Shown here: positions 15,655 through 57,302 of the stretch, piece by piece
How the letters are laid out: each line of letters begins with the position of its first letter
Position numbering within the stretch: the first letter of the stretch is position 1
Assembly (NCBI GenBank): GCA_964016885.1
Contig: OZ024758.1
Span: forward strand, 29,946,001 to 30,010,000
Length of the DNA: 64,000 bases
From: Eledone cirrhosa
Lineage: Eukaryota
Direction: 5' to 3'
Made by a program: the position numbers and the translations under genes
The notes under the pieces: generated by a model
Database searches by the model: none
Told to the model about the DNA's origin: nothing
What the model saw: the letters and a program-made list of their open reading frames with translations, nothing else

Positions 15655-18176
15655 TGGCAGTGTGAGGCCAGATGTTGGGCTGTTTCAGATATTTCTGACG
15701 TAAGTGGTTGTGGGTTTCATCTGAGAAACTAGCAAGTATGTTGTTTTTCATTAGATAAGAATCTTCTTACAACTCTTTTTAATGTTTAAGTCTGAACTTG
15801 GTGACATAGTTGTGTATCAATGACCATGTCACTTTCTGTGGGTGTCTGCTAAGGTTGATGGTAAACACACCCATAGTGACGTAATGCCTAGACTTTTGCT
15901 TGTTGTTATGAGGTTGTCACTTTAACTGTCTTGGTTGGGTTTTCTGAGCTTTACTCATGTAAAGCAATCAAATTTGCTCCTGCTTGGTTCATTATTAACA
16001 TCAAGTGTATCATCATCCAGGTAGAGCCCCTACTTAGAGAAGTAACGGCTCTACCTGGATAATGATACATCGAAAGATCACAGCTCCAGTACTATGGACA
16101 TGTGGTTAGAATATCTAAGGAAAGGATTCTGGGCAGATTTTATGAGCAAAGCCAACTGGCCTAAAGTATAAATCTAAGTTTAAAGTCTGTCTTAAGCTAG
16201 ATAGCTCGTTAGGCCAGTGCTTATCTCGGTTTAATGGCGTGAAGCGACTGAGGGTACAAGACTTCCCTCTGGACAAGACACAGGGTTAAACCCCCAGCTA
16301 TTGCTGGTACTCATTTTCGGCTGAGTATACTGGAGCAACGTGATATGAACATGCAACCCAGCCCAGGAATCAAACCCACAACATTATCATCATAAGTTCA
16401 ACACCCTTACCAGTAGGCCACACACCTCCACAAAAGCCAACTGGCAGAAGACCCAAAGGTAGACCATGAGCAAGATGGTTGGAATACTTCCATAAGCTCA
16501 GTTGGTTTTGTTTGGAATATCTCTGGATCATTTGGAGATAATTGCTTCTGATAAGACCCTCTGGAACATGTGTCTGCAAACTCTACCCCCACAACACAAA
16601 GGTGTAGGGCACTGGATTGGCAGTCATTAAAGGGTCAGACAAATTGTTAACAGTATTTGTTCACACTCTTTAAATTGGGAGTTTAAATCCTGTTGAAGTC
16701 AACTTTGCCTTTCATCCTTCATGGGTCGATGGTTGCTGGCGTTGTGCCTAAATTTGAAACTATTGTTACTATCAGGTATGTTTTTATACAATGGTAGACA
16801 TATTTTACCGATTCTGCCAATCAGGTAAAATAATGGTTTCTTATTTAGACACAGGGCTAGCAATTTTGGGGGAGGAGAATGTCGATTAAATCGACCCCAG
16901 TGCATTACTGGTGCTTTATTTTACCGGCCTCATAAGGATGAAAGGCAAAGCTAACCCCGATAGGATTTGAACTCAGAACGTAAAGGGCCATAACTGACGC
17001 TCTACCGATTCTGCCAATCCAGTAAAATAATAATAAATAATTCATATTACAGTTACATACACACCACACTACATACTTATTAATTAACAAGATGGAATGT
17101 AAATGATATAACATTCTGCTGTTGTAATTAAGCTAGAGATTAATTTTCTAAATTCAGTTTTCCACTAATTGTAAAGTATTAACAATTTCTTTTTAATTAC
17201 TTTCTTTCCTATTGATTATCCTATTATGTCTACATAAGACCCAGGCATGGTTTTCGCTTCAGTATATTTTATATCCATTTAGTTAATTTAGCTGGCAATC
17301 AATGTTTATCATTGATTGACCAATAATGAAGGCACATGGCTTAGTGGTTAGAGCATTGGCCTTGCAATCGAAAGGTTGTGAGTTCAATTCTCAGACTGGG
17401 TAATGTGTTGTTTCCTTGAGCAAGACACTTTATTTCACATTGCTCCAGTTTACTCAGCTGTAGAAATGAGATGATAGGGACTGGGGTCCCTATCATTTCA
17501 CTGCAAAGTGGTCGTGTAGGTTGGTGTTAGGAAGGGCATCCAGCTGTAGAAATCAAGCCAGAATCAGTTCCTGTATGAGCAAGACAAAGTCAGCCGACCG
17601 GATACTGCCCACAACAGGACAACCCGTCTAACCCATGCTAGCATGGAAGAACGGACGTAAAACGGTGATGAGGATGATGATGATATATATATATATAGTC
17701 TCAGAGTTCTTTCATCACACACCTATGACATAAGTTATTATGTTTCCTTCCGTTATCTTGCTGTAATGTTTACTTCTATTTTATTTATATATTCTTGTTT
17801 CTGTTTGTGCATGTGTCTGTGTGTGTGTTTTCTGTTTCGTGTCTGAGTCTGTGTGTTTGTATTCTATCTTTGGTCACTAGTGTGTGTTTATATGTGGTTG
17901 TTGTTATTGTATCTGTGTATTTATCTTAGGTCACTATTGTGTGTTTTCACATTTTCTGTTCAGCTTCAGTTTTCTTAGTTCTATTTCAGTTGCTTCTCTA
18001 ATTTAACTAGTTTATTTATGAGAAATTTGTAATAAATTGAGTTGTATGTTGTATGACCAGTTTAATACAGTTAAATAGAGAAACAAAATGGATAGTCTAT
18101 TAATCAACATCTGACAAAAATGAAGTAAATCTGACCATAAACTGTTGCTATTCAATTATTTGTAATCTGTTTAGCC

Positions 18177-48791: not shown

Positions 48792-49505
48792 TGGTAAAAT
48801 AACATACCAGTTAAGTACTGGGGTTAAATCATGACTGGCAGGTGTAAAATCAGTCAGCTGGGATTTGCAGACGACATGGTGTTATTTAACATGCCAAGGA
48901 TGGTGGATTGGCAGTATCGGTTGAGTGTCAGACACCATGCTTTGCAGTATAGAGTTATGGCCCTTTACATTCTGAGTTCAAATCCCACCGAGGCTGGCTG
49001 TGTCTTTCACCCTTATAGGGTCGATAAAATAAAGCACCAGTAATGCACTGGGGTAATTGTTCGCCTTGTGCCAAGCATAGAAATACTTATTTAACTTGAC
49101 AGAAGGTGATCTCTGACTTGCACTCGTTAAGTTTGATGCAGTGCTGCATCACTGGCACGAAACTCAGTGCTGCGAAAACTGAGACACTTGTCCTCTCAAA
49201 GAAGCTTGCGCAGTGCACTCTTCATGTAAATGGAGTTCTACTGAAGCAGATAGAGAAGTTTAAGTATCTTGGGGCCATGTTCACGAGTGATGGAAGGCAG
49301 GAGGCTGAATTAAGTACAAGAATTGCAGGAGCTGGTGCAGTAATGTGCCAACTTCAGCATTTAGTAACCAGAAGAAGTGAGGTGGATGTAAAAGCCAAAC
49401 TCACTATCTTCAATTTGTTATTCGTGCCAACCCTTACCATGGTCATCTTGGGTAATGACTGAAAGAATACGATCGTGAATACAAGCAGCTGAAATGGAGT
49501 TCCTT
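48792..49505 (+). repeat. Copy 1 of a ~710-bp local duplication (SINE end plus LINE fragment with inserted SINE)
   Basis: Near-identical to 50242-50957. Confidence 0.9.
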
Positions 49506-50241: not shown

Positions 50242-51107
50242 TGGTAAAATAACATACCAGTTAAGTACTGGGGTTAAATCATGACTGGCAGGCGTAAAAT
50301 CAGTCAGCTGGGATTTGCAGACGACATGGTGTTATTTAACATGCCAAGGATGGTGGATTGGCAGTATCGGTTGAGTGTCAGACACCATGCTTTGCAGTAT
50401 AGAGTTATGGCCCTTTACATTCTGAGTTCAAATTTCACCGAGGCTGGCTTTGTCTTTCATCCTTATAGGGTCGATAAAATAAAGTACCAGTAATGCACTG
50501 GGGTAATTGTTCGCCTTGTGCCAAGCATAGAAATACTTATTTAACTTGACAGAAGGTGATCTCTGACTTGCACTCGTTAAGTTTGATGCAGTGCTGCATC
50601 ACTGGCACGAAACTCAGTGCTGCGAAAACTGAGACACTTGTCCTCTCAAGGAAGCCTACGCAGTGCACTCTTCATGTAAATGGAGTTCTACTGAAGCAGA
50701 TAGAGAAGTTTAAGTATCTTGGGGCCATGTTCACGAGTGATGGAAAGCAGGAAGCTGAATTAAGTACAAGAATTGCAGGAGCTGGTGCAGTAATGTGCCA
50801 ACTTCAGCATTTAGTAACCAAAAGAAGTGAGGTGGATGTAAAAGCCAAACTCGCTATCTTCAATTTGTTATTCGTGCCAACCCTTACCATGGTCATGAAT
50901 CTTGGGTAATGACTGAAAGAATACGATCGTGAATACAAGCAGCTGAAATGGAGTTCCTCTAAAGGGTCATTGGTGTAACGTTACTCGTTAGAGTGCATAC
51001 TCCAGGTAGAGCTGCTACTTCTGCAAATTGAGAGATTACAGCTTCGGTACTAAGGGCATGTAGTTAGAATGTCTCAAGAAAAATCACTGGACAGATTTTA
51101 TGAGCAA
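50242..51107 (+). mobile_element. RTE-like LINE fragment with nested SINE; contains copy 2 of the duplication
   Basis: LGFADDMVL and FKYLG motifs. The SINE interrupts the RT and is flanked by ttatttaac on both sides. Confidence 0.85.
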
Positions 51108-51266
51108 AATATTATAATGAAATAGTATGGTAGAATATTTAATGTTAAATGTTAATTGAACAAGTACTTTCATGCTTTCACAATCTTCAGGTTCATATTC
51201 AGTGGTGACAGTCAAGTTTGCAATTTTCAAATATATATGTATTCATTTTCTACTAACATTGTAAGG

Positions 51267-51351
51267 GGTCTGATGAGCCGCAGATTACAAAGTCGGGTAA
51301 GATCGATACAGATCAAACCTTGAGCTGATCAGTGGCGAAACGCGCGTCACC
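51267..51351 (+). ncRNA. Type I hammerhead motif with long stem II in a Penelope-like pLTR
   Basis: ggt CTGATGA gccgc...gtggc GAAAC gcgc GTC acc. Palindromic stem III, GUC triplet, 3-bp stem I, AATAAA at 51356-51361. Confidence 0.8.
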
Positions 51352-51506
51352 AACCAATAAATGTAATGAAGGAGTAACCAATCGTCCTTGTTATCTTTTC
51401 ACTATAATACACTCACTCTAGCTCTACACCTCGACACAGAAGTGAACCTAAACATCGAGTGTTCACCCGGGTGAACCTACAGTAACTCCAAGTTACACTC
51501 CCTAGA
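51350..51506 (+). repeat. pLTR-like terminal sequence downstream of the hammerhead; copies at 52648-52785 (-) and 55437-55622 (inverted plus direct)
   Basis: Shared sequence ...aatgaaggagtaaccaatcgtccttgttatcttttcactataatacac...gttacactccct, followed by (TA)n. Confidence 0.8.
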
Positions 51507-51789
51507 TATATATATATATATAAATGAAAGGTATAGAAATTGTTTTAGCGAAAAGCTAACAGTATTCCATAACATATATGCGACTATGTCGTCAAGATGG
51601 GAAAAGTAGTTAACGTAAGATGTAGGAAAAATAATTCAAACTCATCTCAAAAGAGAATCAGGATATATCAATATAAGGGGGATAACTGTGGATGTCCAGA
51701 ATAAATTATTCAAGTTATTCAGAATATTATAGATTGCTGATGTTAGTCAATCTGGAGCTTTGTTATTATGTAATAGGTGTTTCCAGATG

Positions 51790-52282: not shown

Positions 52283-52632
52283 TGGAGGCACATGGCTTAG
52301 TGGTTAGAGCATTGGCCTTGCAATCGAAAGGTTGTGAGTTCAATTCTCAGACCGGGTGATGTGTTGTTTCCTTGAGCAAGACACTTTATTTCACATTGCT
52401 CCACTTTACTCAGCTGTAGAAATGAGATGATAGGGACTGAGGTCCTTATCATTCCACTGTAAAGTGGTCATGCAGGTGCCGCAGCAAAAAAGCACCCAGC
52501 ACTCACTGTAAATGAGGTTGGTGTTAGGAAGGGCATCCAGCTGTAGAAATCAAGCAGCATCAGTTCCCGTCCTACCCTTGCAAGCAGGGAAAAAGCGGAC
52601 GTAAAATGAAATGATGATGAATGATGATGATA
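52283..52632 (+). mobile_element. tRNA-derived SINE family B (representative) with RTE-like 3' tail
   Basis: A-box tggcttagtgg, B-box gagttcaattc, central ccttgagcaagacactt and (gat)n tail. Copies at 14630-14900(-), 17330-17685, 26590-27006(-), 42250-42575(-), 45845-46170(-) and 60218-60603. Confidence 0.92.
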
Positions 52633-52783
52633 TATATATATATAAAACTAGGGAGTGTAACTTGGGGTTACTGTAGGTTCATCCGGGTGAGCACTCGATG
52701 TTTAGGTTCACTTCTGACAGAGTGTATTATAGTGAAAAGATAACAAGGTCGATTGGTTACTCCTTCATTACATTTATTGGTAG

Positions 52784-52821
<38 letters not shown>

Positions 52822-53120
52822 TGAAACAAAATGAAAACGAAATTTCATTTCTCACTCTTAGTATGGCACTTACTTAAATGTAAGTATGCATGTATACGTA
52901 CATACATATATGTATACAGACGTACAGTAGCATGCACATATATATATATATATATACATATATACATACATATGCATACAGGTACACATACATATATGCA
53001 CGTATCAGTTTAGCGGCGCTAACGTCGCTTTGTTCGTTTGTAAACAAACTGAACAGCCTGAATTTATGCCATACGGTGTTAAGGCAACCACGTCACCTTT
53101 TTGTTCAACACTGACACAGG

Positions 53121-53165
53121 AACGATGTACTAGTTTCAAGCTTCTTAGCTATCATCAGCACCGTT
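53121..53165 (-). ncRNA. Minimal type I hammerhead ribozyme motif, tandem copy 1
   Basis: Minus strand reads AACGGUG-CUGAUGA-UAGC uaagaa GCUU-GAAAC UA GUA^CAUCGUU: 7-bp stem I, intact core, palindromic ACUAGU stem III, GUA cleavage triplet. Confidence 0.85.
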
Positions 53166-53586
53166 TACCCATCTGCCAGATAGTTGAACGTTCGAAAGTA
53201 TATACTTTCCTTATGAAAATTAACGGCTGAGCAGCCTAATTTGCATATTGAGTGAGTTAAATCGGTCAGGCATACCGAAAACGATAAATTGAAACAAAAT
53301 GAAAACGAAATTTCATTTCTCACTCTTAGTATGGCACTTACTAAAATGTAAGTATGCATGTATACGTACATACATATATGTATACAGACGTACAGTAGCA
53401 TGCACATATATATATATATATACATATATACATACATATGCATACAGGTACACATACATATATGCACGTATCAGTTTAGCGGCGCTAACGTCGCTTTGTT
53501 CGTTTGTAAACAAACTGAACAGCCTGAATTTATGCCATACGGTGTTAAGGCAACCACGTCACCTTTTTGTTCAACACTGACACAGG

Positions 53587-53631
53587 AACGATGTACTAGT
53601 TTCAAGCTTGTTAGCTATCATCAGCACCGTT
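53587..53631 (-). ncRNA. Minimal type I hammerhead ribozyme motif, tandem copy 2
   Basis: Same motif (loop II uaacaa), 466 bp from copy 1. Confidence 0.85.
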
Positions 53632-54052
53632 TACCCATCTGCCAGATAGTTGAACGTTCGAAAGTATATACTTTCCTTATGAAAATTAACGGCTGAGCAG
53701 CCTAATTTGCATATTGAGTGAGTTAAATCGGTCAGGCATACCGAAAACGATAAATTGAAACAAAATGAAAACGAAATTTCATTTCTCACTCTTAGTATGG
53801 CACTTACTTAAATGTAAGTATGCATGTATACGTACATACATATATGTATACAGACGTACAGTAGCATGCACATGTATATATATATATACATATATATATA
53901 CATATGCATACAGGTACACATACATATATGCACGTATCAGTTTAGCGGCGCTAACGTCGCTTTGTTCGTTTGTAAACAAACTGAACAGCTTGAATTTATG
54001 CCATACGGTGTTAAGGCAACCACGTCACCTTTTTGTTCAACACTGACACAGG

Positions 54053-54097
54053 AACGATGTACTAGTTTCAAGCTTGTTAGCTATCATCAGCACCGTT
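54053..54097 (-). ncRNA. Minimal type I hammerhead ribozyme motif, tandem copy 3
   Basis: Same motif, 466 bp from copy 2. Confidence 0.85.
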
Positions 54098-54376
54098 TAC
54101 CCATCTGCCAGATAGTTGAACGTTATATATATATATGTGCATGCTACTGTACGTCTGTATACATATATGTATGTACGTATACATGCATACTTACATTTAA
54201 GTAAGTGCCATACTAAGAGTGAGAAATGAAATTTCGTTTTCATTTTGTTTCAATTTATCGTTTTCGGTATGCCTGACCGATTTAACTCACTCAATATGCA
54301 AATTAGGCTGCTCAGCCGTTAATTTTCATAAGGAAAGTATATACTTTCGAACGTTCAACTATCTGGCAGATGGGTA

Positions 54377-54421
54377 AACGGTGCTGATGATAGCTAACAA
54401 GCTTGAAACTAGTACATCGTT
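54377..54421 (+). ncRNA. Minimal type I hammerhead ribozyme motif, inverted copy
   Basis: aacggtg CTGATGA tagctaacaagctt GAAAC ta GTA catcgtt. Predicted cleavage after 54414. Confidence 0.85.
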
Positions 54422-54646
54422 CCTGTGTCAGTGTTGAACAAAAAGGTGACGTGGTTGCCTTAACACCGTATGGCATAAATTCAGGCTGTTCGCTTTGTTT
54501 ACAAACGAACAAAGCGACGTTAGCGCCGCTAAACTGATACGTGCATATATGTATGTGTACCTGTATGCATATGTATATATATATATATGTGCATGCTACT
54601 GTACGTCTGTATACATATATGTATGTACGTATACATGCATACTTAC

Positions 54647-54693
<47 letters not shown>

Positions 54694-54851: not shown

Positions 54852-57302
54852 CACACATGAACACACATATATATAGGCGATACCTTTGCACCAAGGTGGA
54901 TGAAATGTTATATAAGACTACAACTTTTCATGGAGAAGGTCATAGCCAAGCTTCTTATTCTTGTACTATTTGTACTCTTTTAAAGTCCATGAATATTGTA
55001 TAACCTCCTGCACTGCAGTAGATATTTTTAAATGTTACTGATTAAAACAAATAATTCATTTACTGCAATATTAATTATTATATAAAGATTCATACCACTA
55101 TGAATTGATAGTATCTGTGTTGAGTGCTAACTGTGGCTTACACTCAGATTAATTATTTCAATAGTAAAAATAACTCCCACATGAATTAACTAACTTTTTG
55201 AACAAATATATATATAGGCGTGTGGCTGAGTGGTTAGAGAATTGGATTCGCAATCGTAAGGTTGTGAGTTCGATTCCTGGACCAGGCGATACGTTATGTC
55301 CTTGAGCAAGACACTTTATTTCACGTTGCTCCTTCTACCTGGAGTTGCGACCGATAGATAGTATTAGCAATTGGAAAGACCAACGGAAACATTGTTCCCT
55401 CGGTCCGATTTGACGAAAGTCGATCGTTCCTTTATATATAGTGAAAAGATAACAAGGACGATTGGTTACTCCTTCATTACATAATGAAGGATAACCAATC
55501 ATCCTTGTTATCTTTTCACTATAATACACTCTGTCTAGCTCTACACCTCGACACTGAAGTGAACCTAAACATCGAGTGTTCACTCGGGTGAACCTACAGT
55601 AACTCCAAGTTACACTCCCTGGATATATATATATATATTGGAAAATGTGTGAAGTCCTTGGTACAGTTAGGTATATTTGAAAAAAGGAAAATAATGACTT
55701 CACTTGTAGTTGGTATTCTAAATAATTTAATTTTTATATTTTACAATTTTATAATTTTATAATTTTGTTATGTAGCAAAATTATAAAATTATAAAATGGT
55801 CACAGCTGAGTTTGGTGGGTTGACAATTCATTTTATCCATTATTTAACCTACTGAGCAACAAACACCATGGTTTGCAGCATAGAGTTATGGCCCTTAACG
55901 TCCTGAGTTCAAATCCTAGCGAGGTTAGCTTTGCCTTAGGAGGTCAATTTAATTGACTTTGTCCTCGCCAAAATTGCTGGCCTTGTGCCTATAGTAAAAA
56001 TCATTATTTAACCTCCTGTCTTACCTTTAACCCTTTAGCATTTAAACCAGCCATATCTGGCCAGAATTTTCTCACCTCTTTCTGTTTAAACTGGCTGTAA
56101 CCTGCTGCTCATACTGATGTTAAGGAATCATTCTCAAAATAAATAATATATACTATTGTAGTTTCATGGTAAAGCCTTTATCTCACATAATATCGAATCC
56201 ATGAGATTTTGATATTATTTATTTTAAGAACCACACCTTAACATGAATGTGAGCAGTTGGTTACAGCTGCTTTGAACAGAAAGAGGTGAGAGAATTCTGG
56301 CCAGATATGATAGGTTTAAATGCAGGTTAAAAGGTTCCTTCTAACATAATTTGATGTAAGAACCTTTTGTTAAGTCATTTTACCAATATCATCTTAACTC
56401 TTTAGCATTTAAACCGGCCATATCCGGCCAGAATTCTCTCACAAACCAGCTGTAACCGGCCTCTCATACTGATGTTAAGGTATTGTTCTCAAAATAAATA
56501 ATATATAAATCTCATAAATTCGATATTATGTGAGATAATTATGAGGTAAAGCCTTTACCCCGAAAATACAATAGTAAATATAGAATAATGTAAATGTTAA
56601 AGGGTTAATAATGAAATTCTTTATAATCTTACTAAATCCCTCCAAATTCTTTGTTAATTAATTCAACACAGTTTGAATTTCATTAGGAATACGGTAACGA
56701 ACGGTTTAATACCTATAAGGTATAACTACAGATAACCCTTCCACCAACCACCAATTTGTTTCCTCATAATTTTCTTGATAATACATATTTTTGTGAAAAA
56801 TAGCTGGTAAATAGAGCTTACACCGTATTTTGACTAAGAGATTAGTATATTAGTTGGGATTTGTAAAAGCCCACAGAATGGAAAAGGGGATGAGCATTGA
56901 TGTACATGGACATGAACCCACTTTAATACGGTGTAAGCACTATTTACTAGCTATTTTTCAAAATCTCTGCTGTTTATAAACAAAGCCAAGCTTTGTATCT
57001 TCTATATATACATACTCTTTTTTTTTGTGAGATTCTGCAGATATTCATTTTCCATGTTGAAAAAAAAATTTTTAATTAATTTTTTTTAATACATTCATTA
57101 TTTTATATAGTTCTGTTCATTAATGTTTTCACTTATTTATTGAATACTTTTGTGTTTGTTGTAAACTACACTTTCAAAAAGAAAAGTGTAGTTTACAATT
57201 ATGTTGATGAAATTGAAAAAAAAACAAATAATAATAATTTTATTTTTTAGTCCTTTCATTATTGCATACATCGGTTTGTAAATGTTGTCATTACTGTGTA
57301 TC

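What the first reader, a model, noticed from the sequence alone, without database searches (positions are those of the whole stretch)
52815..54650. Tandem 466-bp hammerhead-ribozyme cassette: candidate retrozyme / circular RNA generator
Seen: near-identical non-coding units, each with one intact minimal type I hammerhead (7-bp stem I, CUGAUGA, short stem II, GAAAC, palindromic ACUAGU stem III, GUA triplet), spaced exactly 466 nt apart on the - strand, flanked by (TA)n and about 0.5 kb from a Penelope remnant. Known: minimal type I hammerheads with palindromic stem III occur in Penelope pLTRs and metazoan non-LTR retrozymes, are thought to cleave as dimers, and tandem copies release unit-length RNAs that can circularise. 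Inference: this is a young non-autonomous retroelement whose - strand transcript would yield 466-nt monomers or circles, possibly mobilised by Penelope-like RT. Caveat: stem II closes with a U-U pair next to the core, which may reduce activity.
Basis: partly seen in the sequence, partly recalled or inferred. Interest (0 to 1): 0.9.

Follow-up and report, generated by a model that had tools for sequence, protein, structure and literature searches.

The report
Hammerhead retrozyme with Penelope-type insertion footprint
This is one copy of a very abundant non-coding 466-base repeat carrying a motif predicted to be a self-cutting ribozyme; its ends match the marks left by Penelope-like jumping genes, so it is likely a known kind of parasite (a retrozyme) that is probably copied from a circular RNA by a borrowed enzyme.

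Summary
Observation largely confirmed. The locus is 2.8 tandem 466-bp units on the - strand (three hammerheads) plus an inverted, 5'-truncated arm on the + strand (a fourth), between (TA)n tracts. The hammerhead is a canonical metazoan type I, not a minimal one. It is not single-locus: 11,197 exact core matches genome-wide, with sister families whose stems covary. No sampled arm is part of an ORF-bearing element, and the nearby Penelope remnant is unrelated. So it is a non-LTR retrozyme family. What is new: arms end at two fixed internal sites 62 nt apart followed by (TA)n (64 of 79 arms), and two-armed insertions use one site per arm (26 of 27 classifiable loci, families A+B). That is the Penelope-like 'tail + inverted arm' footprint, direct genomic evidence for the mobilising enzyme class. 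Copies almost never start at the ribozyme cut (at most 187 of 15,100 lack the cut-site A), so the template runs across the cut: a ligated circle (likely) or an uncut multimer. Cleavage, circles and expression are untested; the partner element was not identified. The scan has noted similar footprints on other genomes' ribozyme-free repeats.

The parts
52787..52815 (.). (TA)n target tract, left
52816..54124 (-). Left arm: 2.8 tandem units; 3' end at the 'long' fixed site (unit position 310 counted from the cut), 5' break near unit position 402
52816..52876 (-). About 62-nt 'tail' between the two fixed end sites, present on this arm only; contains a hairpin also kept in sister family B
53121..53165 (-). 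Type I hammerhead 1 (loop II variant); predicted cut 53128/53127
   Evidence: activity not tested
53128..53593 (-). Cut-to-cut monomer 1 (466 nt, 36% GC, no credible ORF); predicted circle
53239..53246 (-). Octamer motif ATGCAAAT 88 nt upstream of the core, with a TATA-like stretch about 40 nt further on; candidate internal promoter (inferred). Also at 53705-53712 (-) and 54296-54303 (+)
   Evidence: exact in 57 of 63 family A, 17 of 19 family B, 5 of 9 family C arms, 0 of 5 family D
53587..53631 (-). Type I hammerhead 2; predicted cut 53594/53593
53594..54059 (-). Cut-to-cut monomer 2 (466 nt)
54053..54097 (-). Type I hammerhead 3; predicted cut 54060/54059
54125..54650 (+). Inverted 5'-truncated arm, head-to-head with the left arm; starts near unit position 177, ends at the 'short' fixed site (unit position 248-250)
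54377..54421 (+). Type I hammerhead 4; predicted cut 54414/54415
54650..54688 (.). (TA)n target tract, right

Best explanation
This is one insertion of an abundant non-coding tandem element (a non-LTR retrozyme) whose RNA is predicted to self-cleave and likely closes into a 466-nt circle that a borrowed Penelope-like RT/endonuclease likely copies round into (TA)n sites. Steps: (1) shown: dispersed high-copy family, hammerhead kept with compensatory changes, no ORF; (2) inferred: transcription, perhaps from an internal octamer+TATA promoter; (3) predicted: cleavage works best as a double hammerhead (palindromic stem III), giving unit-length RNA that a host ligase closes; (4) shown as footprint, inferred as mechanism: a PLE protein nicks (TA)n and starts reverse transcription at two fixed internal sites 62 nt apart, one per DNA end, the two cDNAs meet head-to-head, giving a long arm and an inverted arm with the 'tail' on one side; (5) inferred: RT passes through the ligated cut site repeatedly, giving 1 to several units per arm; (6) shown for a few loci: some arrays later grow by DNA-level amplification. 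The best partner candidates are the young (TA)n-targeting Neptune-like PLEs of the same genome (not identified). Odds: PLE-mobilised retrozyme 0.9; circle as template about 0.6.
For: Copy number 11,197 exact cores, control 0; 54 clusters in the first 66 Mb of contig 1. Ends: 64 of 79 arms in 55 loci stop at the short (29) or long (35) site, 62 of those 64 followed by (TA)n; of 22 two-armed loci 16 were classifiable: 15 long+short, 1 short+short, 0 long+long (p about 2e-4). Family B (about 60% identical, same period): 11 of 11 classifiable two-armed loci mixed; family D (310 bp): 2 of 2. This matches the PLE 'tail on one end, inverted 5'-truncated copy' (Craig et al.) and the two internal RT start sites shown in vitro (PMC11167929). 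Both arms come from one template: rare variants shared across arms in 9 of 23 loci vs 0 of 504 cross-locus pairs; 13 of 13 full units identical over both arms at L142. Ribozyme under selection: 10 of 14 pairs show two-sided changes over 10 hand-picked natural sequences of four families, 96% of cells paired, slid controls 30-47%; stem III palindrome is kept through base changes. Template spans the cut: only 187 of 15,100 copies of the first 25 nt lack the cut-site A, 28 of the first 30 of those still have the hammerhead upstream; 1 of 80 arms began at the cut. Monomer motif prefers an inactive fold (active fold probability 0.004), circle folds stably (z -8.3, 40 shuffles).
Against: No RNA evidence was obtained. 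An uncut multimeric transcript explains read-through of the cut equally well, and the one PLE studied in vitro used uncleaved RNA and did not need its hammerhead (PMC11167929). 8 of 9 Xenopus retrozyme dimers did not cleave in vitro (bioRxiv 2026.07.22.740005). Nearest-neighbour test was mixed (same locus 38, tie 29, other locus 32 of 99) and the window's two monomers differ at 5 sites. Long arrays carry higher-order repeats and one array carries many cleavage-dead triplets, so unit number is not a pure record of rolling-circle copying. No autonomous partner was matched: best similarity to a Neptune-like end p=0.012 among 18 comparisons, and AT-rich chance hits scored as well. The circle's z-score is inflated by the self-complementary TA-rich tract. 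Covariation rows are related and were chosen by me.
Confidence: 0.68

Rival explanations
1. Same element and same PLE enzyme, but the template is a linear, largely uncut multi-unit transcript from existing arrays; the hammerhead only trims ends or acts late, and no circle is needed.
For: Uncleaved RNA was the dominant substrate for a PLE in vitro; giant arrays (at least 31-32 units) could supply long templates; monomer active fold is disfavoured.
Against: Leaves unexplained why all three stems covary across families while copies almost never begin at the cut; large arrays are heterogeneous whereas L142 has 13 identical units over both arms; circles are shown for coral, mussel and axolotl retrozymes.
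Confidence: 0.22
2. Ordinary pseudo-LTR remnants of an autonomous Penelope-like element.
For: End structure is the PLE one; minimal PLE stubs with hammerheads are common.
Against: The unit closes on itself with no ORF; in 55 loci no recurring direct junction to an ORF: Neptune-like pieces next to arms are separated by (TA)n (L073, L044, L229) and two direct junctions to PLE coding sequence lie at different points (L045, L048); 23 loci of the neighbouring Penelope family and the 30+ GIY-YIG loci showed no pLTR-like match other than nested copies. Sample is 55 of several thousand loci.
Confidence: 0.05
3. A satellite DNA spreading only by unequal crossing-over or replication slippage, with a vestigial hammerhead.
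For: 9-mer higher-order repeat in a family B array; recurring variants in a 31-unit array; cleavage-dead variant spread in an array of about 50 kb.
Against: Most loci are dispersed 1-3 unit insertions with fixed ends, inverted arms and (TA)n targets, which recombination does not make; covariation shows selection on the RNA fold.
Confidence: 0.05

Closest known systems
Metazoan non-LTR retrozymes (Cervera & de la Pena 2020, PMC7229834; Li, Clavereau & Pollet 2026, bioRxiv 10.64898/2026.07.22.740005)
   Same: Tandem non-coding low-GC units with one canonical type I hammerhead each, thousands of copies, no LTR/PBS/PPT or ORF, predicted self-paired circle, co-occurring PLEs; U-U at the base of helix II as in axolotl HHR_Amex2.
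   Different: Unit (466 nt) is at the upper end of the 150-450 bp range; circRNA not shown here. The insertion footprint (two fixed RT start sites, one per arm; inverted arm; (TA)n) and a conserved octamer+TATA candidate promoter were not found described for retrozymes in the papers read; a 2020 review says they lack motifs pointing to the mobiliser and seem to lack promoters (PMC7761336).
Endonuclease-bearing Penelope-like elements (Neptune/Naiad/Poseidon insertion architecture; Craig et al. 2021; Frangieh et al. 2024 PMC11167929; PMC3846280)
   Same: Partial tandems, adjacent inverted 5'-truncated copy, 'tail' on one end, AT-rich/(TA)n targets, internal RT initiation at two sites, hammerhead near the end.
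   Different: No ORF; tail is 62 nt (69 in family B) against the usual 30-40 nt, though a Neptune-like family here has 62-64 nt; hammerhead canonical rather than minimal; multiple whole units per arm.
Newt satellite 2 / schistosome SM-alpha hammerhead repeats (partly recalled)
   Same: Tandem hammerhead repeats that cleave as dimers; satellite 2 is recalled to use an octamer-containing snRNA-type promoter (recall only; one search found no paper).
   Different: No sequence comparison made; here most loci are short dispersed insertions.

Membership tests
Metazoan non-LTR retrozyme | [quoted passage not shown] | tested here: met
   466 bp, three consecutive intact motifs
Metazoan non-LTR retrozyme | Canonical type I hammerhead (conserved core, helix I about 6 bp, helix II 4 bp, short palindromic helix III) | tested here: met
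   Motif and covariation; Rfam below threshold
Metazoan non-LTR retrozyme | No ORF, no LTR/PBS/PPT, GC below 50% | tested here: met
   Only low-complexity frames; GC 36%; PBS/PPT not searched specifically
Metazoan non-LTR retrozyme | Multi-copy, dispersed, co-existing with PLEs | tested here: met
Metazoan non-LTR retrozyme | Self-cleavage of the RNA | not testable with these tools
   Bench test needed
Metazoan non-LTR retrozyme | Expressed as circular RNA | not testable with these tools
   No RNA run listed; contigs cannot show circles
   Helix I 6-7 bp, helix II 4 bp plus mismatch, helix III 2 bp with palindromic loop
Autonomous PLE pseudo-LTR | Repeat flanks an RT + GIY-YIG ORF | tested here: not met
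   No recurring direct ORF junction in 55 loci; sample, not whole genome
PLE-type insertion (works like) | Inverted 5'-truncated copy at the 5' end | tested here: met
   22 two-armed pairs in 55 loci; window itself
PLE-type insertion (works like) | Two RT start sites / tail on one end only | tested here: met
   15 of 16 (A), 11 of 11 (B), 2 of 2 (D) classifiable loci
PLE-type insertion (works like) | AT-rich / (TA)n target; TSD often not discernible | tested here: met
   62 of 64 fixed ends followed by (TA)n; TSD unreadable in TA tracts
PLE-type insertion (works like) | Shared terminal sequence with a specific autonomous partner | tested here: inconclusive
   nothing survives correction; ends of one Neptune-like family were not located and Naiad was not searched for

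The most novel reading that the evidence does not exclude
A family of ribozyme-made RNA circles with its own octamer/TATA promoter is copied by rolling-circle target-primed reverse transcription by a dimeric Neptune-like RT, each half of the dimer starting at its own fixed site on the same circle; the tens of thousands of genomic copies then give the first direct footprint tying animal retrozymes to PLE enzymes and a ready in vitro system for both the retrozyme cycle and the origin of PLE tails and inverted repeats.
Probability: 0.4. Interest if true: 0.75.

Novelty: new member of a known kind. Interest (0 to 1): 0.5.

Why it matters
Which enzyme moves animal retrozymes, and whether the circle is the template, are stated as open in the papers read; the existing support is co-occurrence and sequence similarity to pLTRs. 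Here the insertions themselves carry the PLE enzyme's signature in three families, and the strict one-site-per-arm rule (26 of 27) also bears on how PLE tails and inverted repeats form. Young, near-intact Neptune-like ORFs in the same genome make a reconstitution test straightforward. The element class itself is known, so this is a mechanistic data point rather than a new kind of system.

Tried and rejected
DNA search of the own genome returned nothing because common words are skipped; replaced by pattern searches. Rfam hammerhead models do not reach threshold; the many miRNA/snoRNA hits are (TA)n artefacts. No RNA holder listed; laying four runs (kinds not on record, one a guessed RNA run with nothing laid) says nothing about expression. 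The neighbouring Penelope remnant as partner: rejected, different hammerhead and no similarity in 23 loci; Pfam gave no significant hit for its ORF, homologues carry PF26215. A 4,226-bp spacing that looked like an autonomous element was a 9-unit higher-order repeat. Family C hoped to be an ORF-bearing ancestor is also non-coding (output partly cut). Partner by tail alignment: inconclusive. Flank all-versus-all showed common SINE-like and TA-targeting neighbours, no shared coding flank in what was visible. Polymorphism in core versus outside (0 of 11 vs 37 of 255 columns) was set aside as biased, since loci were chosen by an exact core match. Lunse et al. 2017 was not held. Literature searches for a prior description found none for this family or for this footprint in retrozymes; Repbase/Dfam, subscription journals and paper supplements were not seen and may hold it.

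Full report
Observation. The window holds a 466-bp tandem repeat of 2.8 copies at 52816-54124 followed directly by an inverted copy at 54125-54650, the whole lying between (TA)n tracts. Four hammerhead motifs are present: three on the - strand at 466-nt spacing and one on the + strand. I number the unit from the first base after the predicted cut. The motif has a 7-bp stem I, a U-U mismatch plus 4-bp stem II with a 4-nt loop, and a 2-bp stem III inside a 6-nt palindrome ending in GUA. By the definitions in PMC4209133 (part 1 of 4 read) this is the canonical metazoan type I form, not the minimal form. Rfam gives only sub-threshold Hammerhead_HH9 matches.

Family. An exact 31-nt core pattern matches 11,197 times in the 3.0-Gb own genome, control 0. 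The first 100 matches form 54 clusters, all fetched. A pattern excluding this family gave 11,106 further matches, control 6; 95 of the first 100 are a sister family B, about 60% identical along the whole unit with the same 466-469 period. An older relative C and a 310-bp family D also appeared. Over ten hand-picked natural sequences from these four families, 96% of cells pair and 10 of 14 pairs show two-sided changes; slid controls give 30-47%. The rows are related, so this is not a probability, but all three stems change in concert, the core is fixed except position 7, and the stem III palindrome persists through base changes, as a double-hammerhead model predicts. The base of stem II is a mismatch in A, C and D and a pair in B, so U-U is tolerated, as in axolotl HHR_Amex2 (PMC7229834, parts 2-4 of 6 read).

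Insertion footprint. In 55 family A loci (54 plus the window), 64 of 79 arms end at one of two fixed sites, unit position about 248 (29 arms) or about 305-310 (35 arms); 13 end elsewhere and 2 were misread by the script because older units continue; 62 of the 64 are followed by (TA)n. Of 22 head-to-head arm pairs, 16 could be classified: 15 long+short, 1 short+short (probably two insertions), none long+long (p about 2e-4). In family B, of 19 loci examined (chosen for multiple matches), 13 were two-armed and all 11 with both ends readable had one end at 228-234 and one at 302-303. Family D: 2 of 2. The window locus follows the rule: long end left, short end right. Inversion points are scattered, with short overlaps or a few inserted bases. 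This is the PLE architecture: inverted 5'-truncated copy and a tail on one end (Craig et al., passages; PMC3846280, passages), the tail being the stretch between two internal RT start sites (PMC11167929, parts 1-2 of 4). Both arms derive from one template: rare variants are shared across arms in 9 of 23 loci and in 0 of 504 cross-locus pairs.

Is the cut an end? If cleaved linear monomers were the template, copies would start at position 1. Because my first sample required an intact core, I tested this without that bias: the first 25 nt of the unit match 15,100 times, only 187 of these lack the cut-site A, and 28 of the first 30 of those still have the hammerhead upstream. Copies that start at the cut after a chance A are invisible to this test, but cannot raise the share above a few percent. 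So the ribozyme is conserved yet reverse transcription runs through its site. Cleavage followed by ligation to a circle reconciles the two most simply; an uncut multimer is the live rival. Folding is compatible: the lone motif prefers an inactive fold (active probability 0.004) and the circular unit folds stably (z -8.3 against 40 shuffles, inflated by its TA-rich tract). At L142 all 13 full units on both arms are identical. Against over-reading: nearest-neighbour results were mixed, the window's monomers differ at 5 sites, long arrays show higher-order repeats, and a roughly 50-kb array on contig 3 carries many GUG variants expected not to cleave, so DNA-level amplification also acts.

Partner. 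The PLE endonuclease remnant 545 bp away (72% to a longer ORF) belongs to an abundant family with no similarity to the unit. A GIY-YIG search led to at least four young families with RT, a CxxxxCxxC linker and C-terminal endonuclease, Neptune-like by the motif description (no tree built). They end in (TA)n at two sites; one has a 62-64 nt tail and a hammerhead of the same stem III geometry, and family A arms sit in its TA tails at three loci. Tail alignments gave nothing that survives 18 comparisons. The partner is therefore unidentified. No recurring direct junction of the unit to an ORF was seen, which argues against a plain pseudo-LTR.

Candidate promoter. An exact octamer lies 88 nt (A), 100 nt (B) and 85-89 nt (C) upstream of the core in 57 of 63, 17 of 19 and 5 of 9 arms, absent in D (0 of 5), with a TATA-like stretch about 40 nt downstream. 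In A and B it is also one arm of a hairpin, so an RNA role is not excluded. This is a lead only.

Comparison and verdict. All testable retrozyme features are met; cleavage and circular RNA could not be tested, and no RNA run was listed. The 2026 preprint (parts 1-3 of 5 and a term look-up; supplements not seen) argues PLE origin from co-occurrence and pLTR similarity in vertebrates, favours local amplification for the tandems, and does not mention tails or inverted arms; the 2020 review (passages) says no motif points to the mobiliser. My searches found no description of this family. Earlier scan notes report the same footprint on other non-coding repeats in other genomes (unchecked). Verdict: a real, young member of a known class, with unusually clear mechanistic evidence; interest 0.5.

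Noticed in passing
own genome, e.g. L138-L151, C1:5.738-5.752 Mb: Sister family B, about 11,000 cores, 466-469 bp, G-C closed stem II, GUU/GUC triplet; arrays of 31 or more units still bounded by the two fixed ends and an inverted arm.
   Followed up: yes
L035:6309-8400, L049, L212: Family D: 310-bp hammerhead tandem with the same two-end, inverted-arm architecture but no octamer.
   Followed up: partly
L188-L213, L231: Family C: old, mostly single-copy relative of family A with a different stem III palindrome and A-A at the base of stem II.
   Followed up: partly
L217, L218, L222, L224, L225, L229: Young Neptune-like family (about 97% amino-acid identity, open frame up to 938 aa) whose hammerhead has a U3-A8 core in nearly all copies seen, a variant described before for Cercyon PLEs; two ends 62-64 nt apart.
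   Followed up: partly
L219:1775-5062: Neptune-like element with a 1,096-codon open frame; its hammerhead was not located.
   Followed up: no
L215-L216 (C1:95.645-95.660 Mb): Family B array of at least 32 units with a 9-unit higher-order repeat.
   Followed up: partly
G000 C3:12.27-12.32 Mb: About 50-kb family A array in which a GUG triplet variant, expected not to cleave, recurs in over 50 units.
   Followed up: no
window 51110-51250 (-): End fragment of a second Neptune-like family, with a small hammerhead that also has U-U at the base of stem II.
   Followed up: partly
window 51255-51521 (+), 52632-52785 (-), 55437-55638: Pieces of a Penelope-type terminal repeat; the first has a hammerhead with a long stem II insert, the second begins close to that hammerhead's cut site and abuts the left TA tract of the finding.
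   Followed up: partly
L232:6058-7707: Another hammerhead-like tandem with about 559-bp spacing and an inverted arm.
   Followed up: no
family A single arms: Many single-armed copies have their 5' end inside the unit's own TA-rich tract (positions about 112-190), suggesting joining by microhomology to the (TA)n target.
   Followed up: partly
window 48800-49500 and 50250-50950; 17335-17398: A duplicated LINE RT fragment block, and a tRNA-derived SINE head (Rfam tRNA hit) with many copies in the window.
   Followed up: no
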